Of a stretch of 64,000 bases of DNA, positions 4,358 to 35,483 are shown one piece after another (the stretch's first letter is position 1; each line of letters starts with the position of its first letter). Source of the stretch: a virus; UHGV virus genome UHGV-1378817; one strand, 5' to 3'. Both the position numbers and the translations under genes were made by a program. The notes beneath the pieces are model-generated. The model made no database searches, was not told the DNA's origin, and worked only from the letters and a program-made list of their open reading frames with translations.

Positions 4358-4389
4358 ATTTTAACACTTTAGAGAACAAAATGCAAGAA
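4358..4389 (-). promoter_or_regulatory. candidate promoter (TTGCAT-17-TGt-TAAAAT, extended -10) for fibre paralog A
   Basis: Minus strand: -35 TTGCAT (plus 4381-4386), 17-nt spacer, TGT then TAAAAT (plus 4358-4363); about 30 nt upstream of the ATG. Confidence 0.35.
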
Positions 4390-4406
4390 CGGAGTCCTTT
4401 CCGTTC
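4371..4406 (-). terminator. candidate intrinsic terminator downstream of 4417..4731
   Basis: Minus transcript hairpin GAACGGA-AAGGACU-CCGUUC followed by UUGCAUUUUGUUCUCU. Confidence 0.4.
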
Positions 4407-4416
4407 TGACCTTTGT

Positions 4417-4731
4417 TTACCTTTTACTATGCTCTACGAGCATGTGCAAAATCTTTTGTACATCAGCTCGGATACCGGAAACATCTGTCCTGACATCCTG
4501 CTTAAGGTCGTTAATATCGGCCTCTAGCTTGCTTAACCGGGTCTCGATAACGGAATCAAGTCTATCTTTTGTAACCATACTGTTTTTCACTAAGATGAGG
4601 TCTTTCTCCAGCTCATCCAACCTCTTGGAAATGCCTTTCCATTTGGTGTGCCACTGGTTGAAAGCCCATACACAGATCGGGACAACGGTACCCATGCAGA
4701 TACCGTACAATGCCGCCAAATCCAACTCCAC
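4417..4731 (-). CDS. membrane-anchored coiled-coil protein (104 aa), function unknown
   Basis: N-terminal hydrophobic helix (LYGICMGTVVPICVWAF) followed by heptad-rich charged region (ELEKDLILVKNSMV..LSKLEADINDLKQDV). Confidence 0.5.
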   Translation of the reverse strand: MELDLAALYGICMGTVVPICVWAFNQWHTKWKGISKRLDELEKDLILVKNSMVTKDRLDSVIETRLSKLEADINDLKQDVRTDVSGIRADVQKILHMLVEHSKR

Positions 4732-4742
4732 AACACCTCCTC

Positions 4743-5327
4743 TTAGAGGGTAGGTCGCTCCGGGAAGAAAATGTCAGGGGCTTTAGATGTATCTATTTCA
4801 AGAAGTTTTACCCTGTACATTTTCAAATCTCTGATGTTACGTTTCTGGTCATCAGTAAGATCATATTCAAGGTCAATCATGTCTTGATAGGCACCAATTC
4901 TAGCAGTAGCCCAAGCAAGTTCTGTCTCTATGACACCCTCTGCCTGTTGAACAAAGAATTCATTGTCTGTGACAAATTCATCACCAACTAAACGCAAAGC
5001 GTCGTGGTGAAGCATAATGTTTTCTGGTACCTCTTCTTTTTTGGCGATAACCACACGAAGACCTGGAGCAGGCCATAAGGCATCAGGTTCTTCTGTAGAT
5101 GTCTTAAGAATTCCCTTTTCGTCAACAAGTAGGAAGATACAACCCGGATTTTCTTGTCGTAATGTTCGTGACTGCACATACCAATCGCCATCATCATTAC
5201 GTAAAAAATACCCAGTGTATGCGGTGTAATCCTCAACCTCTTGAGGGGTCAGCTCTTTGGTTTCCTTGTTGGCGTGGTATTCGCCAGATCCCGGTTGGTA
5301 AAGTTTAAACTCTTGAAGTATTTTCAT
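4743..5327 (-). CDS. tail fibre assembly protein (Tfa-type chaperone)
   Basis: C-terminal region MYRVKLLEIDTSKAPDIFFPERP matches the conserved C-terminal block I recall for Caudovirales tail-fibre assembly proteins; located immediately downstream of fibre gene 5342..6382. Confidence 0.6.
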   Translation of the reverse strand: MKILQEFKLYQPGSGEYHANKETKELTPQEVEDYTAYTGYFLRNDDGDWYVQSRTLRQENPGCIFLLVDEKGILKTSTEEPDALWPAPGLRVVIAKKEEVPENIMLHHDALRLVGDEFVTDNEFFVQQAEGVIETELAWATARIGAYQDMIDLEYDLTDDQKRNIRDLKMYRVKLLEIDTSKAPDIFFPERPTL

Positions 5328-5341
5328 GCTAGTCCTCCGAT

Positions 5342-6382
5342 CTATGCATAATTAACAGTGATCCATTGACCGTTTACAAGTTTTTGTAAAGGTCCTGCCC
5401 AGTAAGTTGAACCACGCATCTCTTTTTTGTCACCGAAATGCCAGCCTGTGACAACGTAGCCGTTGCGGATTGGAGATTCAGAAACGCCGTCCACAAGTCT
5501 TGCACCGATTCTGATGTCTTGCACACCTGTCTGTGGGATAGTGATCGTTACATCACCGTTACCGTTAGCCGTCACCCCGTTCACAGAGCGAACCACATTT
5601 CTGTTACCGACAACACAGTGCTGGCTTCTTACAACCATACTGTCACAACTTGCACCACCATTAACATATACTGACCCAGCCGTCAACTGACTAGCCACAT
5701 TACAGTTGGTGAATGTTGCGGTATTGCTGATAGTAAGGTTATTGCACCTCATGTTATCGACAACTTCAACATTGCCTACCACTTTCAACAGCGCACGGTT
5801 AGCCGTGATCGCGTTAAGGTACATCAAAGTGAACTCCGGATTAATATCCGGCTGAGTTGGCTGGAATCTCCAACGAAACGCATCTATTGTAGATGTGCCA
5901 CCATCATCAAACGCCCCAATATTATCACTTAACCCAAAGTCGAGAGTTGTCTTATCTGGGCCAATGGTTGTCTCTATCCAAGCCTTATCTGTCTCGGCAG
6001 CTTTAAAGTTGATACGTTGCAAACCCAATGGGCCTGTCATTGTATCACCTGTAACTTTTACATACCTGGCGTCTGCCTCTTCCTTAGTAATAATCCCAAG
6101 GTTTCTACGGGCAACAGGGATGTTCAAAAGATCACTCAAGTTATTATCACGTACCAGATAACGACCTTCTTGAGCGGGGATCTGCTCGTCAGCAATGTAT
6201 TTTGCCCAAGTCCCGAGCATATTGAAAATATAGTTAAGCTCTTCGCACGAGGGCTTTTGACCAAGATCCCAACCTTTTCTCCACAAATCATCAATCGGGC
6301 GTAGCCTGTTCTGTCTGTGGGTGTTAGGCAGAACCTGATCCTCCTCTGCCCAAATCTCTAATGGAAAACTAGGTTTTGACAT
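5342..6382 (-). CDS. tail fibre protein, paralog B
   Basis: Shares N- and C-terminal blocks with 3284..4327 (PLEIWA..QVLPNT....GWD ... LQKLVNGQWITVNYA); contains GDTMTGPLGLQRINF. Confidence 0.7.
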   Translation of the reverse strand: MSKPSFPLEIWAEEDQVLPNTHRQNRLRPIDDLWRKGWDLGQKPSCEELNYIFNMLGTWAKYIADEQIPAQEGRYLVRDNNLSDLLNIPVARRNLGIITKEEADARYVKVTGDTMTGPLGLQRINFKAAETDKAWIETTIGPDKTTLDFGLSDNIGAFDDGGTSTIDAFRWRFQPTQPDINPEFTLMYLNAITANRALLKVVGNVEVVDNMRCNNLTISNTATFTNCNVASQLTAGSVYVNGGASCDSMVVRSQHCVVGNRNVVRSVNGVTANGNGDVTITIPQTGVQDIRIGARLVDGVSESPIRNGYVVTGWHFGDKKEMRGSTYWAGPLQKLVNGQWITVNYA

Positions 6383-6394
6383 TTTATCTCCTGA

Positions 6395-8467
6395 TTATGA
6401 GAAGTCTGGCGGGACAACATCTTCTACATACCCTTTCAAAGCAACCTGCCCCATATGAAGCACGGTAGAATCTCTAGCGGTAACAGTGATGCTGTCGGAC
6501 ATTACTTGCGGGTATGCCCACACATACTGTTTTACCTCAGGGTATCTATACTCTATAGTTGCCATGTTTCCGCAAATACATCTCCATAAAAATTCTTGGT
6601 AATTCCTAGTTGGGTCGTAGCCATATACCGGAGCAAGCTCTTTACTAGGAACGAACCCTGCAAGGTATTGTATTTCGGACGGTTGCCAACCTAACTTAAC
6701 GATAGGTATGTTTACAGACTCTTTTGCCTTTTCAATACCTCCCTGCATCACCCAATCGTAGCACTCGGTGCAGAAGAAATCAAGAGCACCTGCTTCCTTT
6801 TTATATTGGTCAGCAAGGTTCAGCTTTTGTGTAAGCTCAGTTTCCATAATGGTTGGGAAAAACAGCAAAGCTGTCATCTGAGCTGATGCAGCGTGTGCCT
6901 TTATTGCCTTTGAAATAGCCGCAATACGAGCGCCAAGCTTACCACGACAAAATGCTACATACTTGTCGTAAACACCACCAGTTTTAGGATCGTCAATAGT
7001 CCCAATATCTAATGCATACTCACCTGTCTCATCATAAAACGCCTGCTTTGTAGGGTAATCATAAATACAAGGTCTACGAGTATCGGTATTGTACCACCAC
7101 CACGGTTCACCAACCTGCATAATCACTGGCAGGTTGTTTCTCATAGCGGCTGATGCAAAATTCTTAAATACTGCAGTAAGGAAATTCATACCCTCTTCAA
7201 TGGTTGGGGACAGGAGGTAGCTACAAGGTGTATACCCTGTTTTAGCGTAGTTATCGTTCCAGTCTCTTTGGGTCCATTCCAACGGGCAGGCATCGCTGAA
7301 AAGCTCAAAACTTACAGATTGCATAACGTCGAAGTTATGTCGTTTGGCATTGTACATAAAATCATCATGCCATTTATAAGCTGCAGCGTTTAGAGCCCCT
7401 GTTCTGTTTATAGACCATTGGGTTCCGGACCATGTGTAGTCATAATAATGACTCATACCAACATAATGGTTTATGGTTCCGGTATAGCCCAGACGCTTGA
7501 TATTGTTCAACACCCTTAAAGGAGACACGTTCCACATATCGTCATATGCGGTGCAGATCCCAACGTCGTGCTCTCTCACCTGGATATTGTTAAGTTGCAT
7601 CATTTTCCAGCCTGTGTCTGGCTGAAGCAGATCTAGGCGCAACTCACACTCTACATTTTCCGTTCTCGGGTCTGTGCTGTTACTTACCCAGTCTTTAGGC
7701 ATAAGTGGTATTAAAATCCTTCTCACCTGCCGAGGATCAACACCCATCATGCTGTTATTCTGGTCCATCCCGACGCAGTCCTCAAAATCAATATGAATTT
7801 CTGCAACATTCTTATCCTCTGAGATGCTGACAGCATATTGAGCTAAAGGAACATAGATGATTGTGCCATCAACAAGGTCTACAGTCATAATCATCTTTTC
7901 AGGAGTGGAGAAGTTGCTGGCGTTGGTTATTGACATTCTGAACCAAAGCTTGGTGTTTCTCATCTCATAGTGATCATCAAACCCAATACCGAAATGGTCA
8001 TACTTGTCAACTGTTTCCCAAATGCACCCAGCCATACCTCCATATGTTCTTGACACTAAACGGTTAATACAACAGTTGTTATCTGCAACAATACAGGTAC
8101 TTTCAGTCTGCTGAGTAGTTGTAACCCAATATCTTGGGTGAAACATTCTCTCCTCGACAGTATCCCAAGATATCCTGTCAAGATTCTCATCTGAAACTAT
8201 TGTACATTTCGCCCTTTGTGTCCCAATCATCACCCCTTGAGATTTTGATGAAAACTCCATAAAGAAGCTTCTTGGTAACCTGTTGGGTAATTTGTCAACA
8301 ATTTCCACTGGGATCTCAATACTGGTTGCCCCAATTGGGATAGTTACATCGCCCTCAACATGATTATAATCTCTACCAGGAACGGCAGTATCCTGAACTG
8401 TTCGGTAATGAAACTGTGCAGCCATTGTAGAGTAATCACGGTAAGGTTTAAAAACAGCTGTTGCCAT
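6395..8467 (-). CDS. tail fibre/spike protein (690 aa) with Calx-beta-like N-terminal segment
   Basis: TAVPGRDYNHVEGDVTIPIGATSIEIPVEIVD resembles the Calx-beta pattern; large Trp/Tyr-rich C-terminal region could be enzymatic; position in fibre cluster. Confidence 0.45.
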   Translation of the reverse strand: MATAVFKPYRDYSTMAAQFHYRTVQDTAVPGRDYNHVEGDVTIPIGATSIEIPVEIVDKLPNRLPRSFFMEFSSKSQGVMIGTQRAKCTIVSDENLDRISWDTVEERMFHPRYWVTTTQQTESTCIVADNNCCINRLVSRTYGGMAGCIWETVDKYDHFGIGFDDHYEMRNTKLWFRMSITNASNFSTPEKMIMTVDLVDGTIIYVPLAQYAVSISEDKNVAEIHIDFEDCVGMDQNNSMMGVDPRQVRRILIPLMPKDWVSNSTDPRTENVECELRLDLLQPDTGWKMMQLNNIQVREHDVGICTAYDDMWNVSPLRVLNNIKRLGYTGTINHYVGMSHYYDYTWSGTQWSINRTGALNAAAYKWHDDFMYNAKRHNFDVMQSVSFELFSDACPLEWTQRDWNDNYAKTGYTPCSYLLSPTIEEGMNFLTAVFKNFASAAMRNNLPVIMQVGEPWWWYNTDTRRPCIYDYPTKQAFYDETGEYALDIGTIDDPKTGGVYDKYVAFCRGKLGARIAAISKAIKAHAASAQMTALLFFPTIMETELTQKLNLADQYKKEAGALDFFCTECYDWVMQGGIEKAKESVNIPIVKLGWQPSEIQYLAGFVPSKELAPVYGYDPTRNYQEFLWRCICGNMATIEYRYPEVKQYVWAYPQVMSDSITVTARDSTVLHMGQVALKGYVEDVVPPDFS

Positions 8468-9153
8468 TAACCCTCCTGTCTAGTTGCGTTTACTGTAATA
8501 CTTTCACAATAAATGGTTGTGGTGTCCCAATCAGGTCTTACGTCAGGAACATATAGCAAAGTAGCCAGCCCACCAACTCCGAATTGGTTTTCTTCCCACA
8601 CTGATCCGAAGCCAAGAGCTGTAGAGTCCCCTTCAAAACCAAAAGCTTGCCCTTGCGATTCTGTAAGACGCAAATGACAAGGTAATGGTAGCATATCTAA
8701 GATCTGATCGATAGACTGCAATATGTCAAAGCAAGTTTTTCTAATATTTATGTCAAACCTGAAGTTGTCTCCTTTCCACGTATCGAAATTGTCTCTTCCG
8801 AACAATTGTCGCAAGGTGGAGATGACATCTTCGCGAGTCCCGCCCCTTGATGCTGCAGCCTGCTGAATAATTAGTGTGGCACGAAAATCAGCATCTGAAA
8901 GTCCATTCCTAAGAATACCAAGTTGATTACCAACTTCGTCAAGGTATCTTCCGCTGGCATTGTTAAGCAATCTTCCTTCAGCCAAACCTACCAGCATCTT
9001 ATCAACATCCTCCAACCTTTTAAGGTACACGGTTAAGAATGTGACTAAATTAACCTTCTCAGCCAGAAAATCTCCAGGCAGGTAGTCAAGACCTCCCTGA
9101 ACAAAATCTGGCAGAGTGTGGATGTGGTTAACATCCGACTTAATCTCTGCCAT
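8467..9153 (-). CDS. baseplate/tail structural protein (228 aa)
   Basis: ORF with 1-nt overlap to downstream gene (translational coupling); position between baseplate and fibre genes; no diagnostic motif. Confidence 0.45.
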   Translation of the reverse strand: MAEIKSDVNHIHTLPDFVQGGLDYLPGDFLAEKVNLVTFLTVYLKRLEDVDKMLVGLAEGRLLNNASGRYLDEVGNQLGILRNGLSDADFRATLIIQQAAASRGGTREDVISTLRQLFGRDNFDTWKGDNFRFDINIRKTCFDILQSIDQILDMLPLPCHLRLTESQGQAFGFEGDSTALGFGSVWEENQFGVGGLATLLYVPDVRPDWDTTTIYCESITVNATRQEG

Positions 9154-9164
9154 ATCTCGCCGCC

Positions 9165-10655: not shown

Positions 10656-10688
10656 GTCACTCCTCCGGTATGAAAATCTCTACAAGGT

Positions 10689-10717
10689 ATTTTACCAAAT
10701 TTTGTAACAATAGTCAA
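10689..10717 (-). promoter_or_regulatory. candidate promoter TTGACT-17-TGG-TAAAAT
   Basis: Minus strand reads TTGACT ATTGTTACAAAATTTGG TAAAAT; -10 at plus 10689-10694, -35 at plus 10712-10717; TGn extended -10; about 30 nt upstream of the GTG start at 10655. Confidence 0.45.
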
Positions 10718-10723
10718 TCTGAG

Positions 10724-10752
10724 CATAAAAATAAACCCCGCCGAAGCGGGGC
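10724..10752 (-). terminator. intrinsic terminator (UUCG tetraloop hairpin + U tract)
   Basis: Plus CCCCGC-CGAA-GCGGGG (10736-10751); on minus transcript GCCCCGC-UUCG-GCGGGGU then UUUAUUUUUAU; immediately after stop of 10761..14600. Confidence 0.6.
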
Positions 10753-10760
10753 TTTAAAGG

Positions 10761-16168: not shown

Positions 16169-16199
16169 TGTGCCTCCAGGTTAAACAATCATGATAGTT

Positions 16200-16228
16200 A
16201 TTTTACCAGATTTTGAGTTAATACGCAA
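16200..16228 (-). promoter_or_regulatory. candidate promoter TTGCGT-17-TGG-TAAAAT
   Basis: Minus strand: -35 TTGCGT (plus 16223-16228), 17-nt spacer, TGG + TAAAAT (plus 16200-16205); shares TGGTAAAATA with three other late-region sites. Confidence 0.4.
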
Positions 16229-16230
16229 TA

Positions 16231-16260
16231 CAAACAAAAAGCCCCCGCCGAAGCGAGGGC
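16231..16260 (-). terminator. intrinsic terminator (UUCG loop)
   Basis: Plus GCCCCCGC-CGAA-GCGAGGGC (one mismatch); minus transcript hairpin followed by UUUUUGUUUG; directly after stop of 16268..20068. Confidence 0.5.
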
Positions 16261-16267
16261 AAAACAG

Positions 16268-20068: not shown

Positions 20069-20104
20069 TCTTTCTCCTGAAAGGGGGCAAACAGCCCCCC
20101 TATG

Positions 20105-22702
20105 TTAAAGGTACAATCCACGGTATTGAGCATAAAGGCCCAGACCGCGAAGGATTTCGCCAGAGTGATAGCCAACCGGATCAGAAACTGCCCAGCAGCC
20201 GTTTAAAATATTATCCCCATTAATGAAGTGGTGCTTTTGCAGTAGCTTCACACAGGCTTCCACAACAATATCTATTTGAGGTATTGTCTCTGAATACCCG
20301 CACAGACCTAGCCAGCAGCAACCTGCAAGCCATTCACCTACCACCCACATCCTGTCTCCTCTGTCCTGATAAGAATATCCCCCAGAGGTGTTAAAGTCTG
20401 TAGGCAGATTTCCTGAATGAGATGACTGGAATCTGTTGAGGAACCATGCCCATTTCTGGCAGAACAGGAATAGTCTTTCATCAACAGGTTCTTTATGTTT
20501 CTTGAGCTCATATATTGTGCGGCACGCAGCAACAAAAGATCTTGACTGGAGCTTAGAGTTATCTACCATCTCCCACCAACCAGTCAACCCTTCATTACCT
20601 CTTTGCCATACATAACGTGAGGCAACTGGACCCTCTGTCTTAAATGTATTATTATACCAGACTTGAGCGTCATACAGAAAGCCTATTGTATTTGACAATC
20701 TATGGCGATCTATGTTTTCTGCACCCATGCAGTAGACTGCTGGGTATTGCATACCAGGGTAGGGCCAATTTGGCCTTTCCTCTAAGAGATAGTTTTCCTT
20801 ATCTATCACCTTTCCGGCAGGGAACACACCCGGTGTGTGCCTGTATGCACCTTGCTTGTAGTTTCTGACATAGCAATCGCCAACCTTAGCGGTTGATTCT
20901 GTCTTGCTTGCCATCCATACGCTAAACCAGATTAGATAAGCATCCCTATCTGCAATATAAAATTGCGGCAGTGTGTTGACGCAATACAGATCAAACAAGC
21001 CATTACCTATCTGCCTGTCGCTTAGACTGAAATCTACAGAGGTTAGCCCCTTAGGATTAGCAAAGAAAGGTTTAATCTCTTCTTCGGTGTGATGAGGTTG
21101 TGTCGGATCTAGTTTGAAATCTCCTAGGGTAAGAGTTTCTGTTATCCATTGTCCATTGGTGGCATATAGATCAGCATACCATAACCACCTGTCTTTGTCA
21201 AGAAATTTGACCCTTACCATCTCATCATCTGATCGATAAGTTACTGAGTTTAAAGAAATCTCTCTTCCAAAATTGAAAGTTACTTTGCCTCTTGCTATAT
21301 TACAACGGGTGAAGTTGTCAGAGTGGTTGTAAATGTCGGTATCATACTGCATACTGACACTAGCACCACCGCTTACGGCAATGTTTTCCTCTTTAGGTAA
21401 GAGATACGGATTACCGTCTTTACCAACTACCTCTACGAAATCGGTAACCTTGGCAACTATTTCTGTTACCTCTGCCCCTCCAAAAGGAACCCCTATCCTG
21501 TACTGTTTTTTGTTATTGTTGCCATCATTAAGGATGAAATGTGGCTGGAATAGAACCCCTTCTCCTCCGAAATTCATAACAATTTCAGCATCTCTGCCTA
21601 TTTTGTATGTAGTCCCTTTTTGAATTATTTCGCAAGGCTGGCGTGCGTTCATTCTAAAATTGATATACCCGTCACTGTCCCTGCTCATGACAGGAACTGT
21701 TCCTGCAACAAGACAAGTACCATCTGTGAACGGTGCCTTAATCAGCGTGGTCTTTCTAAACAGCTTGTCGTAGGCGTTTATATCACTGAAATTAAGCAAC
21801 TTGTTGTAAGACTGTTTAAACGCGGTGTAATACTTTTCCTCACCTGTCAAGGTGTAGAGTTGATAACAAGCGTCACACCACATTTCTTCCCCGTCCAACT
21901 CTGGGGCCTGATTATCTGCAACCACGTTTATAGGATTTACAATTACAGGGGATCCTGCAGGTATCACCGATCCACCCTGCTCTTGAGGTAATCTTACACA
22001 ATAGGTCACCTTGTGGCTGCCTGTAACACCCTTATCTTGTAGTTGGATTGTGCCGAACTCTACAGACGTATGACCACTGTCGGCTATGCTACCGTTAGCC
22101 CAATAGCGGTTACCATCCCATGCTATATACCACTCAACCCACCAACTTAATCCGGATGTTGTCCAATCTGGGTTAGCATCTGTGCCACCGTAAACATCAG
22201 AGTCTACAGTGTTTCTTCCTAACACACCGTTATATGCTTGAAATGCCTTGTCTAGGTATTCCCCCCATGTCGGAGATCCAGCTGGGATTTTTCCTCTACC
22301 ATTGGTAAAAGACACCACCACATCTTTAAACCCACCATGTGATGGAACCCCATCTGTGGATAGAGGGTAGTGGGACAATCTTTGCATTTTACTTTCTACT
22401 GCATATGCACCCAGAAGATGGCTATTGTAAGCTTCCCAAGCATCTTTTGCCCTATCCAAGTAGAAATCGCTTTTCGATGCCCTGTATGCTTCAATGTACC
22501 CCAGAATCAACACAGCTTGGGACTCGTGCATTGCCCAATCATTATTTATCTTATTACCTGCCCACCCTGCAGCTATAAGACCATCAGGGTTTACTAGCTT
22601 ATTTTGTGTAGGGGTGTTGGTAATACCTGTGTTGTTATCGAGGCACTTCCTGTGCCCCTCAATCATCTGAAATACGTTATCAATGTTATGTTGAATACGC
22701 AT
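20105..22702 (-). CDS. large tail-associated protein (865 aa), possible enzymatic spike
   Basis: 865-aa ORF between fibre genes; Trp/Tyr-rich globular sequence without fibre-like repeats; function not assignable by eye. Confidence 0.4.
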   Translation of the reverse strand: MRIQHNIDNVFQMIEGHRKCLDNNTGITNTPTQNKLVNPDGLIAAGWAGNKINNDWAMHESQAVLILGYIEAYRASKSDFYLDRAKDAWEAYNSHLLGAYAVESKMQRLSHYPLSTDGVPSHGGFKDVVVSFTNGRGKIPAGSPTWGEYLDKAFQAYNGVLGRNTVDSDVYGGTDANPDWTTSGLSWWVEWYIAWDGNRYWANGSIADSGHTSVEFGTIQLQDKGVTGSHKVTYCVRLPQEQGGSVIPAGSPVIVNPINVVADNQAPELDGEEMWCDACYQLYTLTGEEKYYTAFKQSYNKLLNFSDINAYDKLFRKTTLIKAPFTDGTCLVAGTVPVMSRDSDGYINFRMNARQPCEIIQKGTTYKIGRDAEIVMNFGGEGVLFQPHFILNDGNNNKKQYRIGVPFGGAEVTEIVAKVTDFVEVVGKDGNPYLLPKEENIAVSGGASVSMQYDTDIYNHSDNFTRCNIARGKVTFNFGREISLNSVTYRSDDEMVRVKFLDKDRWLWYADLYATNGQWITETLTLGDFKLDPTQPHHTEEEIKPFFANPKGLTSVDFSLSDRQIGNGLFDLYCVNTLPQFYIADRDAYLIWFSVWMASKTESTAKVGDCYVRNYKQGAYRHTPGVFPAGKVIDKENYLLEERPNWPYPGMQYPAVYCMGAENIDRHRLSNTIGFLYDAQVWYNNTFKTEGPVASRYVWQRGNEGLTGWWEMVDNSKLQSRSFVAACRTIYELKKHKEPVDERLFLFCQKWAWFLNRFQSSHSGNLPTDFNTSGGYSYQDRGDRMWVVGEWLAGCCWLGLCGYSETIPQIDIVVEACVKLLQKHHFINGDNILNGCWAVSDPVGYHSGEILRGLGLYAQYRGLYL

Positions 22703-23372: not shown

Positions 23373-23381
23373 GATTTCTCC

Positions 23382-24098: not shown

Positions 24099-24110
24099 GA
24101 AAGCCCTCTA

Positions 24111-26172: not shown

Positions 26173-26184
26173 TATACGCTCTCC

Positions 26185-27069: not shown

Positions 27070-27102
27070 AACCTCTCCAGGACACTCCGATACCATCTAG
27101 AT

Positions 27103-27131
27103 ATTGTATCATAAAATAGCCGTTTTTACAA
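27103..27131 (-). promoter_or_regulatory. candidate promoter TTGTAA-17-TGa-TACAAT
   Basis: Minus strand: -35 TTGTAA (plus 27126-27131), 17-nt spacer, TGA + TACAAT (plus 27103-27108). Confidence 0.35.
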
Positions 27132-27135
27132 CACC

Positions 27136-27163
27136 GATAAAATAAAGGGGGCCGGAGCCCCCT
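27136..27163 (-). terminator. intrinsic terminator after tape measure gene
   Basis: Plus AGGGGGC-CGGA-GCCCCCT (27146-27163); minus transcript hairpin followed by UUAUUUUAUC. Confidence 0.55.
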
Positions 27164-27173
27164 GCACAGTTTA

Positions 27174-29510: not shown

Positions 29511-29517
29511 GGTTTCC

Positions 29518-29561
29518 TCATAATAAAAAGGGCCAGATCCCAGAAAAGGAATCCGGCCCTT
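29518..29561 (-). terminator. candidate terminator/hairpin between chaperone and tape measure genes
   Basis: 7-bp stem AAGGGCC/GGCCCUU with large internal loop, then UUUUUAUUAU on minus transcript, then GAGGAAAC SD and the tape measure ATG. Confidence 0.35.
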
Positions 29562-29564
29562 AGA

Positions 29565-29813: not shown

Positions 29814-29824
29814 AACAACCTTGC

Positions 29825-30298: not shown

Positions 30299-30341
30299 TT
30301 TATAGCATCCTTATTAGTCATGTTGTGCACCATATTTGTGT

Positions 30342-30370
30342 ATTTTACCATGATTATGGTGCATTGTCAA
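30342..30370 (-). promoter_or_regulatory. near-consensus promoter TTGACA-17-TGG-TAAAAT
   Basis: Minus strand reads TTGACA ATGCACCATAATCATGG TAAAAT; sits between tube-gene terminator and chaperone gene start (30298). Confidence 0.5.
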
Positions 30371-30410
30371 TTTAACCTTTCAAGCAATTCAAGAACGTGT
30401 GTCAAAACCA

Positions 30411-30442
30411 TAAAAGCAAAAAGCCCCACCCGAAGGTGAGGC
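30411..30442 (-). terminator. intrinsic terminator after tail tube gene (UUCG loop)
   Basis: Plus GCCCCACC-CGAA-GGTGAGGC; minus transcript hairpin followed by UUUUUGCUUUUA. Confidence 0.6.
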
Positions 30443-30460
30443 TTATGCTAAAGTGTGCCC

Positions 30461-30934
30461 TTAGATAATACCTGCAAGACCTGCGAGGCCAGTAAGAGCA
30501 CCAGTGATGTTATCACGGTTGAGCCATGCATCCAGAATACCGATATCCCAGTCCAGTTGACCTACTTCGGTTCCGTAAGTCAGGTCAGGCTGTTTCTGGA
30601 TCCAACCGATTGTGGAAATACCAGGACCCTGGCTACCTTCCAGCAGAACCGGGAAGAATACCAGGCCAGTAATCGATGCCTGTTTCTGCCAGTCAGAAAG
30701 GTAAGCGTTCCATACAGAAGTGTTCTGCAAAGACACGGTCATAACACCGGATTGGTTACGGGACAGAGCCGCAGACATTTCACCATCCACACCGACGTGA
30801 GGATAAATGTTGTCTTCGTTTCTTGAAACAACAATCTTGGTGTCAGCAGCGAAGCCAGTGACACGCTGCTGCATCAGATACAGTTTGACCTTTTTAGGGT
30901 CATACGCATAAGGAGTTAAAATTTGAGTTTCCAT
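30461..30934 (-). CDS. tail tube protein (157 aa)
   Basis: Size and position (between sheath and chaperones); strong terminator downstream as expected for an abundant structural gene. Confidence 0.6.
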   Translation of the reverse strand: METQILTPYAYDPKKVKLYLMQQRVTGFAADTKIVVSRNEDNIYPHVGVDGEMSAALSRNQSGVMTVSLQNTSVWNAYLSDWQKQASITGLVFFPVLLEGSQGPGISTIGWIQKQPDLTYGTEVGQLDWDIGILDAWLNRDNITGALTGLAGLAGII

Positions 30935-30944
30935 CTAGGCTTCC

Positions 30945-32321
30945 TTATTCAGTCATTGCAACAGCATTGGTGGATTTAGAACCAACTTTGTCCAGAAGGA
31001 CGTTGATCCGGATACGAACGAAGTGCAGGGCGTTATTATACACCAGTTCTACTTTCACACCTTCCAGAACACGAGCAGCCAACTGATTGGTTGGGATTTC
31101 TGCACGTTTAGGAACTGTGATGATCGGGTCGTAGAATACATTATTGTCTTCGTCGAAACCTGTCAGGATCGCACCATTCTTAATGCCAGTGTTGATTGGG
31201 TTGTTCATCAGGACAGACTTGATAACCGGAAGATCATCATCAGACATCTTCATGCTTAAACCCATATTAGAGCGACGATGCATGTACCCAAACATAGATT
31301 CTTCAGATCTGAACTTGATCCAGTGTGCAAAACGAATAGCGTCTGCATACTGGCCTGAAGCACACTTGCCTTCCCAGAAAGCACCAACACCGTTAATCAT
31401 TCTGTAGAAGTTAACGTGGTTTTCCCAAATCGCCATACGCTGAGTTAAAGTCATAGATGGTGCAATCACACCCGGCATCTGTTTTAAATGCAAGCTGTCA
31501 CCGTAAGACGGATCGTTGGATGCCATAGCGCCTACGATACCACCCTCTGGAAAATCTTTATCAGCACGAGGGTCGTACATGCCAACACTGTCATATTGTG
31601 CAGCCATCAGTTTGGTGGCGATGTTATTATCTTTACCAGTCACATCTTCTGCAGTAGAGTAGACATGCAGTTTGTAGTTAGCCTGAGCCCACTTAGCACA
31701 TGCTTCAATGTCGGTGTGGTCTTCATGGCACAGGAAGTACCAATTGTCACGCTCAGCATTGATCTTATCAACCACTGTAGAAGGTTTTTCAGCATTGGCG
31801 ATATTTTTGATTGTATAGTTACCGGTATGGTAACCAACAGTACAGTCACCAGTGATAGTGATAACACCATCATCAGCCTCTACGGTGATATCGTTCAAGC
31901 TATCATCTGCTTCAATTTTAGTCTTCATTGACTCTGCAATCTGAGTTGCACCTGTTCCACCAGAGATAGGTACTATCAAAGAAGTATTGTAGCTACCTTT
32001 TGCAATAGTCATTACGACATCGGTATCAGCTGCGGCAGCAATACCTTTAAAATCTACAGTGGTCTTTTCTTTGGCCTGTCTGCCGATCATAACGTATTGT
32101 GGAGGGAATACACCACCAAAAGCTTTTGCTGCAAACTCATACGCTGCAGAGCCTTGTGCGAAACCATCTTCCACCATCTGATCCAGCTCTGCATATACGC
32201 GAGCTCGCTCAGTAAAGTTGTTGTGGATAGCGATGAACAGGGGAGTTTCGAAACCTACAGTGTCTATAGGCTGGGTTCCGAGGTTAACTGTAACATCTAC
32301 CACTTTATCTAAATATGGCAT
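30945..32321 (-). CDS. tail sheath protein (458 aa)
   Basis: 458-aa ORF immediately upstream of tube gene; AAGAGGAAAC SD; order sheath-tube-chaperones-tape measure typical of contractile tails. Confidence 0.6.
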   Translation of the reverse strand: MPYLDKVVDVTVNLGTQPIDTVGFETPLFIAIHNNFTERARVYAELDQMVEDGFAQGSAAYEFAAKAFGGVFPPQYVMIGRQAKEKTTVDFKGIAAAADTDVVMTIAKGSYNTSLIVPISGGTGATQIAESMKTKIEADDSLNDITVEADDGVITITGDCTVGYHTGNYTIKNIANAEKPSTVVDKINAERDNWYFLCHEDHTDIEACAKWAQANYKLHVYSTAEDVTGKDNNIATKLMAAQYDSVGMYDPRADKDFPEGGIVGAMASNDPSYGDSLHLKQMPGVIAPSMTLTQRMAIWENHVNFYRMINGVGAFWEGKCASGQYADAIRFAHWIKFRSEESMFGYMHRRSNMGLSMKMSDDDLPVIKSVLMNNPINTGIKNGAILTGFDEDNNVFYDPIITVPKRAEIPTNQLAARVLEGVKVELVYNNALHFVRIRINVLLDKVGSKSTNAVAMTE

Positions 32322-32362
32322 TTGTTTCCTCTTAATATCTGTGCACGGATATCAAACACGCA

Positions 32363-32389
32363 GTGTAATCATTACACTACACAATTATA
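32363..32389 (-). promoter_or_regulatory. candidate -10 element (TATAAT) followed by palindromic 5' leader element upstream of sheath gene
   Basis: Minus strand TATAAT (plus 32384-32389) then palindrome GTGTAAT-G-ATTACAC (plus 32363-32377); -35 region is weak. Confidence 0.3.
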
Positions 32390-32393
32390 ACGA

Positions 32394-32945
32394 TTACTGA
32401 CCACTGTCTGTAACCGCTTTACCAGAATTGGGTGAAGGGAAGTGTGTGGTTATTTCAGCCTTAATTCCCTGAAGATCCTCAAAAGCCCCAATGTCTGTTT
32501 CAACAAACCTTACGTTAAATGTCAGCATCACAGTGGCTCTATTTTCATACATCTGCTTATTCAACGGCACTCTTTGAGGTGAGATTGTTGAATTGTTAGA
32601 GTAGGCAAAGCACGATCCCAGAGGGAAATACTTGTCATAAAACATTGGAAGGTTTATTGCTTGCAATACTCTGCTAAGTGCAGCATATGCCCTGCCACGA
32701 TAAGCTGTTAACAGATAAGTAACAGTATAGCTGTGGGTGACGTAAGCATTACCCTCCGCGTCTTGAAACTCATTATCTTCCCAAGTGGTTGGATTGATCG
32801 CCAAGGTTTGTAAAAGTACAAACTCACCTTCCGGCTTAGGTATGGTAGAGCTTTCTGCCAGAACTACAGTTCTTCCTGTGGCAACCTTGACGAGCTTGGC
32901 AATGGTTGTTTCAAGATCAGAAAAAACTTTTTCGAAAGCTTCCAT
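32394..32945 (-). CDS. neck / tail completion protein (183 aa)
   Basis: ORF between head-tail joining genes and sheath; position only. Confidence 0.4.
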   Translation of the reverse strand: MEAFEKVFSDLETTIAKLVKVATGRTVVLAESSTIPKPEGEFVLLQTLAINPTTWEDNEFQDAEGNAYVTHSYTVTYLLTAYRGRAYAALSRVLQAINLPMFYDKYFPLGSCFAYSNNSTISPQRVPLNKQMYENRATVMLTFNVRFVETDIGAFEDLQGIKAEITTHFPSPNSGKAVTDSGQ

Positions 32946-33370
32946 CAGTTTTCTCCTTCAGGCTCTTCTACCACAAAAAATCTATATCTCCCACCACCAG
33001 AGGTAACATATGCATCGCATTTTAAAACAGTAAACCATTTCAAGTCACCACGGATGTCGGGCAGCTGAATTTGGTCAGCCATTGCATATGTTCCTTCATC
33101 CGGACTGTACAACTTGGTTGAGGAGTAAACTGTAAAAGCCTCGTACTGTCTGTCACCTTCAGGGTTTATTTGAGAGGAGTAATCTTTGGCTGCCCTTCCT
33201 GTCAACGGCTGCACAACACACTCTAAGACATCAAACTCTTCATACTCAAGTTCTAACCCCTCGTTGGCAAAAGGGCCACCAACTGTTTTGTTATACACTC
33301 TGTGGCGACCTTTGAATGTTTTACGAGGTATTAGTCTGTTCTTTCCTATCAGCTTATAACCTGCTGCCAC
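32945..33370 (-). CDS. head-tail joining protein (141 aa)
   Basis: ORF coupled by 1-nt overlap to downstream gene; position only. Confidence 0.4.
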   Translation of the reverse strand: MAAGYKLIGKNRLIPRKTFKGRHRVYNKTVGGPFANEGLELEYEEFDVLECVVQPLTGRAAKDYSSQINPEGDRQYEAFTVYSSTKLYSPDEGTYAMADQIQLPDIRGDLKWFTVLKCDAYVTSGGGRYRFFVVEEPEGEN

Positions 33371-33385
33371 TCAACCCCCTTATTT

Positions 33386-33844
33386 TCACTGTCCGATTTT
33401 AAAGGTTGCAGATTCAAGCAGCACATCGTAATGCCGCATAGCCTCGTTGAAGCCCTTTTCTTGTGCCCACTGCTCACTAACAGTAGGATTACTAAACTGC
33501 CCAGCCTCAATAACAAACTGAATAGCTTTGGCCCCTGTGTCCCCCATCTGCTTAAGAATATCCTCTGCACTTGATCCTCTAGCCATAGCTCTCAACAATT
33601 TTTCTGTCAAGGTCTGTAGTTGAGTACTATGAAATGCAAAGGCTGTCTCCATGAAATTGCGAACAGGCAGCCCGTTCCAACCGAAGTTGTGAATGGCTGC
33701 CAATGTTGCCATATTTAAGCCTGACGGGTGAGGTTCGTCATAAAAGCCGTAGGTTATTGTTTTACTTTCAAGTCTCACAAGGTCTTTGTAGAAGCGATCT
33801 AAACGCTTTAGGTTGAACCTTGTTTGACATTTAACCTTTAGCAT
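33386..33844 (-). CDS. head-tail connector region protein (start revised to ATG 33844)
   Basis: Track ORF starts at GTG 33856; ATG at 33844 has GAGGGA SD upstream and lies just downstream of a TGGTAAAATA promoter-like site. Confidence 0.4.
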   Translation of the reverse strand: MLKVKCQTRFNLKRLDRFYKDLVRLESKTITYGFYDEPHPSGLNMATLAAIHNFGWNGLPVRNFMETAFAFHSTQLQTLTEKLLRAMARGSSAEDILKQMGDTGAKAIQFVIEAGQFSNPTVSEQWAQEKGFNEAMRHYDVLLESATFKIGQ

Positions 33845-33862
33845 TATATCCCTCACTAATGT

Positions 33863-33891
33863 ATTTTACCACAAAGATACATCAAAAGCAA
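33863..33891 (-). promoter_or_regulatory. candidate promoter (weak -35 TTGCTT, TGG-TAAAAT extended -10)
   Basis: Minus strand TGTGG TAAAAT ACATTAG; shares TGGTAAAATAC with the promoters at 10689 and 30342. Confidence 0.3.
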
Positions 33892-33897
33892 CAATTT

Positions 33898-34518
33898 TTA
33901 AAAACTGCGTTTGCGTCTTGGGTGGCGAGGAGGTTGGTTATTTAGACCACTGATAGGTGTAATCCCCTGGACATCAAACGGTCCGTTGCTGTTTTCATTA
34001 AATTTAACCCGAATTCCTTCGTCTACACGAACACCACCAATGATAATCATTCTGCTGTAAGCATCCAGTTCAGAATCTACATAGTCAGGGTGTGCCAGCA
34101 GCCAATCAAGGAAATCTTTCCATTGGGCGTAGGAAGATCCACCACGAATCTCTATGGTCTCATCACCTATTTTTTCCAGACGGGAAGTTATACTTGCATT
34201 ACCGCTGGACACTTCCTGCATCATCAGCCACCTCACAAGCTGCACAAGCACATTGTACTTAAGCAGAGGTAGCTTATCAGGATCTGCCGGATAATTTAGT
34301 TTCAGCTTCTCCATGTCAAGGAATGTTTTAATTACCTCGTCAGGGAGGGTTTCCTCATCAACATTGCCAAGCAACAACCTCATAATATTAATAAGAGGTT
34401 GATCTGGATCAGGTTCCGGAGGTACAGGATCTTCTTTTGGTGGTTCTTCTGGGGTATCAACTACACCATCATGGTTAGGCGGGGACGGGATAATCTCTTC
34501 ATCTTCATACCATGCCAT
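33898..34518 (-). CDS. structural protein with Pro/Glu-rich N-terminal linker (start revised)
   Basis: Track ORF extends through an upstream terminator to 34575; ATG at 34518 (MAWYEDEE) follows the terminator and a GAGG SD. Confidence 0.4.
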   Translation of the reverse strand: MAWYEDEEIIPSPPNHDGVVDTPEEPPKEDPVPPEPDPDQPLINIMRLLLGNVDEETLPDEVIKTFLDMEKLKLNYPADPDKLPLLKYNVLVQLVRWLMMQEVSSGNASITSRLEKIGDETIEIRGGSSYAQWKDFLDWLLAHPDYVDSELDAYSRMIIIGGVRVDEGIRVKFNENSNGPFDVQGITPISGLNNQPPRHPRRKRSF

Positions 34519-34530
34519 TTGAAAATACCT

Positions 34531-34568
34531 CGTAAAAATAAAGCCCCATTCCTGATTTGGAAGGGGCC
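34531..34568 (-). terminator. intrinsic terminator
   Basis: Minus transcript GGCCCCUUCC-AAAUCA-GGAAUGGGGCU then UUUAUUUUUACG; downstream of stop of 34578..35426. Confidence 0.5.
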
Positions 34569-34577
34569 TTAACAAAA

Positions 34578-35426
34578 TTATGCCAGTGCAGCCTCAAAAT
34601 CTTTCATCATATTTTGGAAAGTTTTTGCCTTACTTAAGGTAACACCGTACTCTTTGGCGAAGGCTTGAAGTGCATCTTTTGAACCACTTTTGTCATCTTC
34701 GTTGTTAAGAGCTGCTGCCTGCTGTAGCAGGGCATCAACATCACTGCGAGAAGATCTTGATTCTTGTGCCTGTTCAGGATCCTGCTCAGTGCCTTCCTCC
34801 GGTACAGTCGGGCCTTGGGATTCTTCACCACCACCACCAGGTTCAGTAGGACCTACAGGCGGCTCCGGCTCTGGTTCAGGCGGTGGAGCTATCGTAGAGA
34901 CCAGTCCAAGATTTACAACCTGAGAACGTTTCTTAGGCCACTCAATGGTGAAAGTTTGGGTATCTTCTTCATAAACAATGCTGCATTGCTCATCGTTTAT
35001 GGTCACTTTTTTAGGCATCCCTACAGGGTCCCATAGATGGCCCTCTGCCACGGAAACTTGGAAAGCCGCATCTACCTCTTTAAACACTGACGGGGTGAGT
35101 GTGATATTGACATCCCCGCTTTGCAGTGTTAAAGTGCTTTCATCAAGGTTCTCTGTGAAGAACAGAAGAATAACACCCATACGGATAGTTGAAATACCAG
35201 TATCAATTGGCAGTCCTGTATGTTTTGCAATCTTCTCGAAGAAGTCTACAATCGTTCTGCACGGATAGTGAACACTGCCGATAACGAATTCTGTTGGTGG
35301 CAGCAGGGCTGATAAACCAACATTGATTTCTGGATTATATTGTGCTAAAAATTGATAAAAACTTAACTGATTGTTGAAAACTCTTAATAGAGGATCATAC
35401 TCAACTGGGTAGACGGTTCGCTTCAC
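34578..35426 (-). CDS. head-associated protein with acidic Pro-rich linker (282 aa)
   Basis: GTG start with AGGAG SD; PPPEPEPEPPVGPTEPGGGGEE low-complexity linker; first gene after capsid-gene terminator. Confidence 0.4.
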   Translation of the reverse strand: MKRTVYPVEYDPLLRVFNNQLSFYQFLAQYNPEINVGLSALLPPTEFVIGSVHYPCRTIVDFFEKIAKHTGLPIDTGISTIRMGVILLFFTENLDESTLTLQSGDVNITLTPSVFKEVDAAFQVSVAEGHLWDPVGMPKKVTINDEQCSIVYEEDTQTFTIEWPKKRSQVVNLGLVSTIAPPPEPEPEPPVGPTEPGGGGEESQGPTVPEEGTEQDPEQAQESRSSRSDVDALLQQAAALNNEDDKSGSKDALQAFAKEYGVTLSKAKTFQNMMKDFEAALA

Positions 35427-35447
35427 GGGACACTCCTGTTAAACCCT

Positions 35448-35483
35448 AATAAATAAAAAGGGGAGGGGGAGAACCCCCTCCCC
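35448..35483 (-). terminator. strong intrinsic terminator after major capsid gene
   Basis: Perfect 10-bp GC stem GGGGAGGGGG-AGAA-CCCCCUCCCC (plus 35460-35483); minus transcript followed by UUUUUAUUUAUU. Confidence 0.65.

What the first reader, a model, noticed from the sequence alone, without database searches (positions are those of the whole stretch)
4358..35483. Late region organised as repeated terminator-then-promoter cassettes sharing a TGGTAAAATA -10 motif
At least four intergenic sites on the minus strand (-10 at plus 10689, 16200, 30342, 33863) carry TGG+TAAAAT(A) with a TTG-containing hexamer 17 nt upstream; related sites occur at 4358 and 27103. Several lie immediately after GC-rich hairpin terminators, three of which have UUCG tetraloops. 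The shared TAAAATA core is also reminiscent of T4-type late promoter boxes, so these may be host sigma70 extended -10 promoters or phage-specific late promoters.
Basis: seen in the sequence. Interest (0 to 1): 0.55.

Follow-up and report, generated by a model that had tools for sequence, protein, structure and literature searches.

The report
Late-gene promoters of an rV5-like phage
The repeated TGGTAAAATA sites are real and are most likely ordinary host-type (sigma-70, "extended -10") promoters, often placed just after transcription terminators between the structural genes of an rV5-like coliphage; the same motif and sites were published for phage rV5 in 2013.

Summary
The window is an rV5-like coliphage (Vequintavirus), about 97.5% identical to slur16 and rV5_ev147. 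TGGTAAAATA occurs exactly four times (0.21 expected), always on the minus strand in intergenic gaps. The wider pattern TTG-N17-TGnTAnAATA has exactly eight matches in 64 kb (0.04 expected). All eight lie in late-unit gaps, in sense orientation, 18-70 nt before a start codon. Four follow strong GC hairpin plus T-run terminators, and three of these have UUCG loops.

Orthologous gaps in three other Vequintavirinae lineages keep TTG at -35, the 17-bp spacing, TG at -15/-14 and T-12, A-11, A-9, A-8 and T-7. Positions -13 and -10 and the spacer sequence vary. One lineage has plain TGnTATAAT. That is the signature of E. coli sigma-70 extended -10 promoters, not of a T4 late box. TATAAATA is absent from the sense strand of the late unit, and no sigma, AsiA or MotA domain was detected in 147 non-structural proteins.

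Kropinski et al. 2013 already reported this motif ("TggTAaAAtA", eight copies), the T4 comparison, the extended -10 promoters and the terminators for rV5. Verdict: real, ordinary, already known. Transcription start sites and the timing mechanism remain untested.

The parts
40067..40096 (-). Promoter before the portal gene: TTGCCA-17-TGG TAGAAT A
   Evidence: Equals P064 of Kropinski Table S4C. The orthologous site in lineage L012-15 is TTGCCA-17-TGT TACAAT A.
40018..40050 (-). Hairpin plus T run inside the portal-gene leader, downstream of the promoter (rV5 't064ABC')
   Evidence: -14.0 kcal/mol.
38392..38421 (-).
   Evidence: Orthologues: PVP-SE1 TTGCAA..TGT TAAAAT A, PBES02 TTGCAA..TGC TAAAAT A, L014 TTGCAT..TGG TAGAAT A.
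35450..35483 (-). Strong intrinsic terminator after the major capsid gene (GGGGAGGGGG-TTCT-CCCCCTCCCC-TTTTT). No promoter follows it.
   Evidence: -24.8 kcal/mol; rV5 t060. A terminator sits at the same position in other lineages.
34532..34568 (-). Intrinsic terminator before the adaptor gene. No promoter here, but other lineages have TGnTATAAT after it.
   Evidence: -16.0 kcal/mol; L009, L012-15 carry a promoter.
33862..33891 (-). Promoter before the neck (Ne1, rV5 gp056) gene: TTGCTT-17-TGG TAAAAT A. No terminator precedes it.
   Evidence: P056. The full composite is kept in all Vequintavirinae lineages fetched.
30341..30370 (-). Promoter after the tail-tube gene: TTGACA-17-TGG TAAAAT A (11/12 to consensus plus TG)
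   Evidence: P051. L012-15 have TTGACA-17-TGT/TGC TAAAAT/TATAAT.
30411..30444 (-). Intrinsic terminator with UUCG loop after the tail-tube gene
   Evidence: -16.8 kcal/mol; rV5 t052.
29518..29561 (-). Long hairpin plus T run just before the tape-measure gene, with no room for a promoter
   Evidence: -25.7 kcal/mol; rV5 t050. The hairpin is conserved with sequence changes in other lineages.
27102..27131 (-). Promoter after the tape-measure gene: TTGTAA-17-TGA TACAAT A
   Evidence: Orthologues: TTGTAA-17-TGG TATAAT (L012-15), TTGTTT-17-TGA TAAAAT (PVP-SE1 group), TGC TAAAAT (Certrevirus).
27136..27163 (-). Intrinsic terminator (GGGGGC-TCCG-GCCCCC-TTTATTTT) after the tape-measure gene
   Evidence: -15.6 kcal/mol; rV5 t049. 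Orthologues are GGGGCTTCGGCCCC and similar.
16199..16228 (-). Promoter: TTGCGT-17-TGG TAAAAT A
   Evidence: P040.
16231..16260 (-). Intrinsic terminator with UUCG loop
   Evidence: -16.9 kcal/mol; rV5 t041.
10688..10717 (-). Promoter before the baseplate gene (rV5 gp036): TTGACT-17-TGG TAAAAT A
   Evidence: P036. Orthologues are TGA TAAAAT A after a terminator in PVP-SE1 and PBES02.
10723..10754 (-). Intrinsic terminator with UUCG loop
   Evidence: -16.2 kcal/mol.
4357..4386 (-). Promoter: TTGCAT-17-TGT TAAAAT A
   Evidence: P030.
4376..4407 (-). Weaker hairpin with a poor T run. Its 3' tail overlaps the -35 of the 4358 promoter.
   Evidence: -10.4 kcal/mol.
1212..1243 (-). Intrinsic terminator between tail-fibre gene 28 and gene 27; no promoter after it
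   Evidence: -14.5 kcal/mol; rV5 t028.
42342..42382 (-). Terminator-like hairpin plus T run between the tRNA block and the terminase-side genes; no promoter after it
   Evidence: -16.9 kcal/mol.

Best explanation
**What they are (inferred).** The eight sites are promoters read by the host RNA polymerase with its main sigma factor (sigma-70). They belong to the 'extended -10' kind:
- sigma region 2 reads TAnAAT at -12 to -7;
- sigma region 3 reads TG at -15/-14;
- sigma region 4 makes a partial contact with TTG at -35, 17 bp upstream.

**Where they sit (shown).** They lie in the few gaps of a roughly 41-kb minus-strand block of head, neck, tail and baseplate genes. GC-rich hairpins with T runs in the same gaps are inferred to be intrinsic terminators.

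**How the block works (inferred).** Terminators and promoters together cut the block into units, with approximate boundaries as follows:
- portal;
- protease to capsid;
- neck genes to sheath and tube;
- chaperones and tape measure;
- baseplate;
- fibres.

Terminators damp read-through, for example after the abundant capsid and tube genes. Promoters restart transcription, which sets relative mRNA doses.

**Shown versus inferred.** Shown here are the sequences, their positions, orientation, statistical excess and evolutionary conservation. Not shown are the use of sigma-70, the start sites (predicted about 7 nt after each hexamer) and termination itself. How expression is delayed to late times is not known.
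For: 1. **Specificity.** The composite pattern TTG-N17-TGnTAnAATA has 8 matches in the window. All are intergenic, in sense orientation and in the late unit; expected 0.04. In the complete genome of the relative rV5_ev147 there are 9 matches, 8 of them the same late sites.
2. **Density.** TGnTAnAATA occurs at 5.6 per kb in late gaps against 0.17 per kb in other gaps, p = 8e-7.
3. **Position.** The sites lie 18-70 nt before start codons that have Shine-Dalgarno sequences.
4. **Conservation across lineages** (Seunavirus PVP-SE1, Certrevirus PBES02 and an unnamed IMG/VR lineage, L012-15), in 27 non-redundant sites:
   - T-35 in 25/27, T-34 in 27/27 and G-33 in 19/27 were not imposed by the selection and are conserved;
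   - -13 carries no information (G12, A7, T5, C3);
   - the third hexamer base varies (A20, T4, G2, C1);
   - spacer sequences have diverged completely.

   This is the tolerance pattern of the TGn/-10 class as defined in Hinton 2010 (PMC2988021).
5. **Plain consensus in one lineage.** L012-15 carries TGnTATAAT at four of the orthologous sites.
6. **No alternative machinery detected.** No alternative sigma, AsiA or MotA domain was found among 147 non-structural proteins. The rV5 paper found no gp33/45/55 homologues.
7. **Terminators.** Hairpins of -14 to -26 kcal/mol with T runs sit at gene ends, and their positions are conserved across lineages with different stem sequences.
Against: - There are no transcript 5' or 3' ends for any rV5-like phage in the literature I could search.
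- Several sites, such as TTGACA-17-TGGTAAAAT, should be strong with unmodified host polymerase. Sequence alone therefore does not explain 'late' timing.
- Within this phage the class has features that the textbook consensus does not predict. A rather than T is the third hexamer base in 6/8 sites (0/8 T), A is at -6 in 8/8, and A/T is at -29/-28 in 27/27 sites across lineages.
- Positions -10 to -6 (AAATA) coincide with the 3' half of the T4 late box.
- The orthologous sites are not independent samples, and part of the -10 pattern in the 27-site table was imposed by how sites were picked.
Confidence: 0.8

Rival explanations
1. The sites are sigma-70 promoters, but a phage factor that remodels host polymerase sets their late use. 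An example would be a protein that blocks -35 recognition by sigma region 4. Extended -10 promoters with weak -35 elements would then win over the phage's TTGACA-type early promoters. This extends the main explanation rather than replacing it.
For: - **Class contrast.** All 8 late promoters have TGn, and only 1 of 8 has a full TTGACA. Predicted promoters elsewhere are mostly TTGACA with varied -10 hexamers.
- **Precedent.** TGn/-10 promoters are immune to T4 AsiA (PMC2988021).
- **Candidate protein.** rV5 gp11 matches PHROG families named 'decoy of host sigma70' and 'Srd anti-sigma factor' (E = 2e-14 and 1e-9).
- **Unexplained features.** A at -6 and A/T at -29/-28 are class-specific.
Against: - No AsiA or MotA domain was detected.
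- The -35 TTG of the late promoters is conserved, so region 4 contact seems to matter.
- The density of TTGACA per kb of gap is the same in late and other gaps (1.4 against 1.6 per kb).
- gp11's best PHROG hit is an HNH endonuclease family.
- No expression data exist.
Confidence: 0.2
2. The sites are phage-specific late promoters of the T4 kind. A short A/T-rich box would be read by a phage-encoded sigma-like protein (gp55-type) with co-activators, independently of -35.
For: TAAAATA shares AAATA at -10 to -6 with the T4 late box TATAAATA. The motif is confined to late-gene gaps. Kropinski et al. raised the resemblance.
Against: - TATAAATA occurs 0 times on the sense strand of the late unit, and 7 times in the whole relative genome with no intergenic excess (p = 0.14).
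- The first three box positions do not match.
- TG at -15/-14 and TTG at -35 with fixed 17-bp spacing are conserved, which a T4-type box does not need.
- Lineage L012-15 has TATAAT, which breaks AAATA.
- No sigma-like domain was found in 147 proteins.
- No gp33/45/55 homologues were found.
- The replicase is annotated as T7-like, and no sliding-clamp family appeared among the listed hits.
Confidence: 0.05
3. The sites are T4 middle-type promoters: a MotA-box-like TTGC element plus a sigma-70 -10 element, activated by sigma appropriation.
For: Five of the 8 -35 hexamers begin TTGC (TTGCAT, TTGCGT, TTGCTT, TTGCAA, TTGCCA), which resembles the TGCTT core of the MotA box. About half of T4 middle promoters also carry TGn.
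Against: The MotA box lies 12 +/- 1 bp from the -10 element. Here the equivalent distance is 15 bp, which is the ordinary -35 register with a 17-bp spacer. No MotA or AsiA domain was detected. The hexamers beyond TTG are not conserved between lineages.
Confidence: 0.02
4. The pattern is a chance or compositional artefact of A/T-rich intergenic DNA.
For: Gaps are A/T-rich, and generic promoter scans find as many 'promoters' as in shuffled sequence (37 against 35.0, and 47 against 35.6).
Against: - 8 matches against 0.04 expected.
- All are in sense orientation and none is antisense in the gaps.
- The pattern is conserved at orthologous boundaries in lineages whose proteins are only about 45% identical, while the flanking bases have diverged.
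Confidence: 0.01

Closest known systems
Putative late promoters 'TggTAaAAtA' of Escherichia phage rV5 (Kropinski et al. 2013, Virol J 10:76, Table S4C), with the rV5 terminator list (Table S4D)
   Same: It is the same motif at the same gene boundaries. P030, P036, P040, P048, P051, P056 and P064 correspond to window sites 4358, 10689, 16200, 27103, 30342, 33863 and 40068. For five of them (P030, P036, P048, P051, P056) the listed sequence is identical to the window; P040 and P064 differ at one or two bases. The paper makes the same comparison with the T4 late box and notes that gp33/45/55 are absent. It also lists the same terminators (t041, t049, t050, t052, t060, t064ABC, t028).
   Different: - The window is a relative of rV5, not rV5 itself (P040 and P064 differ by 1-2 bases).
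- The paper's P055 lies in coding sequence and is not conserved, so it is probably a false positive.
- The paper's P048 register falls on what cross-lineage comparison shows to be the -35 (TTGTAA) of a TGATACAAT promoter.
- The site before the protease gene (38393) is not in the paper's lists.
- The cross-genus conservation and the sigma-70 reading are added here.
E. coli sigma-70 'extended -10' (TGn/-10) promoter class
   Same: TG lies one base upstream of a TAnnnT hexamer, and position -13 is free. The -35 is partial or dispensable: some Certrevirus orthologues have only the terminator's T run there. The class definition is from PMC2988021.
   Different: There is a strong preference for A as the third hexamer base and for A at -6, and for A/T at -29/-28. 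The spacer is an invariant 17 bp. Recognition by sigma-70 has not been tested.
T4 late promoters (TATAAATA; gp55, gp33, gp45)
   Same: An A/T-rich box sits about 10 bp before late-gene starts. AAATA at -10 to -6 is shared.
   Different: The box is not matched (5/8 in the positional register). TG and the -35 TTG are conserved here. No gp55/33/45 were found. A related lineage uses TATAAT.
Middle/late promoters of Thermus phage P23-45, and AsiA-resistant TGn/-10 promoters of T4-infected cells
   Same: These are extended -10 promoters used for later genes by host polymerase, in phages whose other promoters depend on -35. The P23-45 part is from my own knowledge, not checked here.
   Different: No inhibitor of -35 recognition has been identified in rV5-like phages, and the late promoters here keep a partial -35.

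Membership tests
sigma-70 extended -10 (TGn/-10) promoters | TG at -15/-14, one base upstream of the -10 hexamer, with -13 free | tested here: met
   8/8 window sites. In 27 non-redundant sites from four lineages, -13 is G12, A7, T5, C3.
sigma-70 extended -10 (TGn/-10) promoters | -10 hexamer of the TAnnnT type with T-12, A-11 and T-7 kept | tested here: met
   TAAAAT x6, TACAAT and TAGAAT in the window. Orthologues are TATAAT, TAAAAT, TACAAT and TAGAAT.
sigma-70 extended -10 (TGn/-10) promoters | -35 element weak or dispensable; if present, TTGnnn at 16-18 bp | tested here: met
   TTG at a 17-bp spacer in 8/8 sites, and full TTGACA in 1/8. Some Certrevirus orthologues have no TTG.
sigma-70 extended -10 (TGn/-10) promoters | Located upstream of genes, in sense orientation, at leader-length distance | tested here: met
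   All intergenic and in sense, 18-70 nt from the hexamer to the start codon.
sigma-70 extended -10 (TGn/-10) promoters | Initiation by sigma-70 holoenzyme, dependent on TG | not testable with these tools
   Needs in vitro transcription or 5'-end mapping. No such data were found.
T4-type late promoters | TATAAATA box | tested here: not met
   0 occurrences on the sense strand of the late unit. 7 in the whole relative genome, 2 of them intergenic and neither in the late unit.
T4-type late promoters | Phage sigma-like gp55 with gp33 and sliding clamp gp45 | tested here: not met
   No sigma domain in the Pfam or NCBIfam scans of 146 proteins plus gp12, and no clamp family among the hits listed. 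Kropinski et al. report no homologues. Very divergent proteins could be missed.
T4 middle (MotA/AsiA) promoters | MotA box (a/t)(a/t)(a/t)TGCTTtA 12 +/- 1 bp from the -10 element | tested here: not met
   The TTGCnn elements sit in the ordinary -35 register, with 15 bp from the box-equivalent end to the hexamer.
T4 middle (MotA/AsiA) promoters | MotA and AsiA homologues | tested here: not met
   No such Pfam family among hits with E < 0.002.
Intrinsic (rho-independent) terminators | GC-rich hairpin immediately followed by a T run, at the 3' end of a gene, on the transcribed strand | tested here: met
   Hairpins starting at 1243, 10754, 16260, 27163, 29561, 30444, 34568, 35483, 40050 and 42379 (part 42342-42382) have -14 to -26 kcal/mol with T runs. 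Positions are conserved with different stems in other lineages. The hairpins at 4407, 20100 and 38427 lack a good T run.
Intrinsic (rho-independent) terminators | Transcript 3' ends at the T run | not testable with these tools
   Needs Term-seq or in vitro termination assays.
rV5 'TggTAaAAtA' late motif (Kropinski 2013) | Same sequence at the same gene boundaries in an rV5-like genome | tested here: met
   Seven of the paper's eight sites map to window sites. Five listed sequences are identical to the window, and P040 and P064 differ by 1-2 bases. The window is 97.5% identical to Vequintavirus genomes.

The most novel reading that the evidence does not exclude
The late class would be a dedicated promoter type rather than a set of generic host promoters. 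Its defining features are TTGnnn with A/T at -29/-28, an invariant 17-bp spacer, TGn, TAaAAT and A at -6, conserved across Vequintavirinae. An as yet unidentified phage protein acting on host RNA polymerase would time its use, for example by interfering with sigma region 4 (rV5 gp11, Srd-like, being one candidate). That would be a new sigma-appropriation-like switch in a large phage group that has no polymerase or sigma factor of its own.
Probability: 0.15. Interest if true: 0.55.

Novelty: already known. Interest (0 to 1): 0.15.

Why it matters
The practical value is limited.

- **Annotation.** The work gives a clean, testable promoter and terminator map for the structural module of rV5-like phages, which are used in phage therapy and biocontrol. 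It corrects two details of the 2013 list (P055 and the P048 register) and adds one site.
- **A usable search pattern.** TTG-N17-TGnTAnAATA picks out the late promoters with no false hits in this window. The promoter before the neck gene is conserved across the whole subfamily.
- **The open question.** How does a phage with no polymerase or sigma factor of its own delay its structural genes, when their promoters look fully competent for the host enzyme? The sequence analysis sharpens that question but does not answer it.

Tried and rejected
**Literature**
- I searched for transcript mapping or RNA-seq of rV5-like phages and found nothing usable. One search was too broad and was wasted.
- The exact motif string appears in no relevant paper text. 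The rV5 paper writes it in mixed case in the text and in a supplement.
- The PVP-SE1 genome paper is not held.
- The Certrevirus CB7 paper describes only an early-type promoter, AAAA-N3-TGTTGAC-N19-TATAAT.

**Scans that were uninformative**
- Generic sigma-70 consensus scans find about as many 'promoters' as in shuffled sequence.
- My first composite pattern had the wrong spacing (TTG-N20) and found almost nothing. This was corrected.
- Rfam found only tRNAs.

**Readings rejected**
- T4 late box: rejected.
- MotA box: rejected on spacing.
- A 9-bp inverted repeat bracketing the -10 of the 30342 promoter looked like an operator. Its arms change without compensation in close relatives, so I did not pursue it.
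- I expected full TTGACA hexamers to be rarer per kb in late gaps. They are not. The contrast holds only per promoter.

Full report
**What the window is.** Megablast places the window in the rV5-like coliphages (Vequintavirus). It covers 100% of, and is 97.5% identical to, slur16, rV5_ev147 and others. GC skew and the ORF map show a long minus-strand block from about 1250 to 47,500 and a plus-strand block from 47,575. The annotated relative rV5_ev147 shows what the first block encodes. It holds tail fibres, baseplate, tape measure, tube, sheath, neck, capsid, protease, portal and terminase, followed by a tRNA cluster and small genes.

- TGGTAAAATA occurs exactly four times, at the stated coordinates. 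All four are on the minus strand, with 0.21 expected.
- Each site has a TTG-starting hexamer exactly 17 nt upstream, and the two 'related' sites are of the same build.
- Two further sites of the same build exist, at 38393 (before the protease gene) and 40068 (before the portal gene).
- The pattern TTG-N17-TGnTAnAATA matches these eight places and nothing else on either strand of the 64 kb, with 0.04 expected.
- In the late unit only 3.4% of bases are intergenic. Even so, TGnTAnAATA on the sense strand is 8 intergenic against 2 coding (p = 8e-11), and none is antisense.
- In the complete genome of rV5_ev147 the four exact copies are the only ones. The composite pattern has nine matches there, eight of them these late sites.
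- TGnTAnAATA is 33 times denser in late gaps than in other gaps.

**The hairpins hold too.**
- Strong GC hairpins with T runs (-15.6 to -16.9 kcal/mol) lie directly upstream of the promoters at 10689, 16200, 27103 and 30342. Three of them have C(UUCG)G loops.
- The layout is more varied than 'cassettes' suggests:
  - 4358 and 38393 follow weaker hairpins without good T runs;
  - 33863 has no hairpin;
  - 40068 is followed by a hairpin and T run inside the portal leader;
  - the terminator-like hairpins at 42342-42382, 35450-35483, 34532-34568, 29518-29561, 20076-20100 and 1212-1243 have no promoter after them.

**It is already published.** Kropinski et al. 2013 (PMC3606486) took the upstream regions of rV5 late genes 27-66 and ran MEME on them.
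- They noted that rV5 has no gp45, gp33 or gp55 homologues.
- They noted that 11 of the 33 sigma-70-like promoters have extended -10 regions, and they listed 20 terminators.
- Their Table S4C lists P030, P036, P040, P048, P051, P055, P056 and P064. Table S4D lists t028, t041, t049, t050, t052, t060 and t064ABC.

**What the sites are.** I fetched the structural module of PVP-SE1 (Seunavirus), PBES02 (Certrevirus), two Stephanstirmvirinae and 46 IMG/VR contigs. I then extracted the DNA upstream of orthologous genes.
- The same boundaries carry the same kind of element. These are the boundaries before terminase or portal, protease, the neck gene gp056, the gene after the tube, the gene after the tape measure, and baseplate gene gp036. 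The element often follows a GGGGCTTCGGCCCC-type terminator.
- Across lineages the spacer sequences are unrelated.
- The third base of 'TGG' is G, A, T or C.
- The third hexamer base is A, T, C or G.
- TG, T-12, A-11, A-9, A-8 and T-7 are kept. TTG at -35 was not used to pick the sites, yet it is kept too: T 25/27, T 27/27, G 19/27.
- One lineage (L012-15) has TGnTATAAT at four sites.
- The gp056 promoter keeps the whole composite pattern in every Vequintavirinae lineage fetched, down to about 45% protein identity.
- This is the tolerance pattern of the sigma-70 TGn/-10 class (definition in PMC2988021).

**Rival readings tested.**
- *T4 late box.* TATAAATA is absent from the sense strand of the late unit. 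It shows no intergenic excess genome-wide.
- *MotA box.* It should lie 12 +/- 1 bp from the -10 element. The TTGC-type hexamers here are in the ordinary -35 register.
- *A phage sigma or appropriation factor.*
  - I scanned 146 non-structural proteins of the relative's genome, plus gp12, against Pfam and NCBIfam. No sigma, AsiA or MotA domain appeared.
  - gp11 lies outside the window. It matches PHROG families named 'decoy of host sigma70' and 'Srd anti-sigma factor', but its best hit is an HNH endonuclease family.

**What remains unexplained.**
- Within this phage the late class differs from the other predicted promoters. All eight late promoters have TGn and a 17-bp spacer, and only one has a full TTGACA. 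None has T as the third hexamer base, and all have A at -6. Promoters elsewhere are mostly TTGACA with varied hexamers.
- Positions -29/-28 are A/T in all 27 non-redundant sites.
- Several late promoters look strong for unmodified host polymerase, so the sequence does not say why these genes would be late.
- A switch based on interference with -35 recognition is conceivable by analogy with AsiA, to which TGn/-10 promoters are immune. Nothing here shows it, and the conserved -35 TTG argues that region 4 contact is used.

**Verdict.** The feature is real and highly non-random. It is best explained as host-type extended -10 promoters interleaved with intrinsic terminators in the structural module of an rV5-like phage. 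This analysis adds four things:
- cross-genus conservation that favours the sigma-70 reading;
- one extra site (38393);
- reassignment of the P048 register;
- the likely rejection of P055, which lies in coding sequence and is not conserved.

Noticed in passing
window 42996-43094 (-): Within the tRNA cluster (42751-43563), ARAGORN calls a 99-nt 'tRNA-???' with a four-base anticodon (atcc). Rfam's tRNA model scores it only 35.5 bits. It may be a pseudo-tRNA, an intron-bearing tRNA or a frameshift-suppressor-like tRNA.
   Followed up: no
window 30326-30334 and 30355-30363: A perfect 9-bp inverted repeat (TGCACCATA / TATGGTGCA, 20 nt apart) brackets the -10 element of the strongest late promoter. 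In close relatives (L009, L011) one arm changes without compensation, so it is probably not a conserved operator.
   Followed up: partly
window 39998-40099 (-): Before the portal gene the order is reversed. The promoter (40067-40096) comes first, and a hairpin with a T run (40018-40050) follows inside the 5' leader. This could be a leader attenuator or an RNA-stabilising hairpin. The arrangement is conserved in lineage L012-15 with a different stem (GCCCTCTTCGGAGGGC).
   Followed up: partly
window 38402-38427 (-): The -35 hexamer TTGCAA of the protease-gene promoter sits in the loop of a GC hairpin (GGGGGTT-GCAA-AACCTCC) that has no T run.
   Followed up: no
all late promoter sites (window, L004, L005, L012, L014): Positions -29 and -28 are A or T in 27/27 non-redundant sites, and -6 is A in 22/27. 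Neither is part of the textbook sigma-70 consensus.
   Followed up: partly
window about 32950-33010 (-) and 27120-27140 (-): Two entries of the published rV5 late-promoter list look wrong. P055 (TGGTAGAAGA) lies inside the coding sequence of the upstream gene, and in other lineages the corresponding coding sequence carries no promoter-like hexamer. The P048 MEME register falls on the -35 (TTGTAA) of a TGATACAAT promoter.
   Followed up: yes
window 20650-20659 (-) and 7087-7096 (-): TGGTATAATA and TGGTACAATA occur inside long tail-protein genes in sense orientation, but without TTG at -35. They could be weak internal promoters or chance matches.
   Followed up: no
window 43650, 44055, 44669, 46518 (-); 52864, 54741, 62835 (+): Outside the structural module the predicted promoters are of a different build. 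They have a full TTGACA, usually preceded by (g)tG, with varied -10 hexamers. This matches the early-type promoter described for Certrevirus phages.
   Followed up: partly
public records, not the window: About 18-23 GenBank records named 'Campylobacter phage' (A12a, A141, C9 and others; host given as C. jejuni) match the query from this E. coli rV5-like phage. Their tail-tube proteins are 100% identical to the window's. The host label may be wrong, or the preparations may be contaminated.
   Followed up: no
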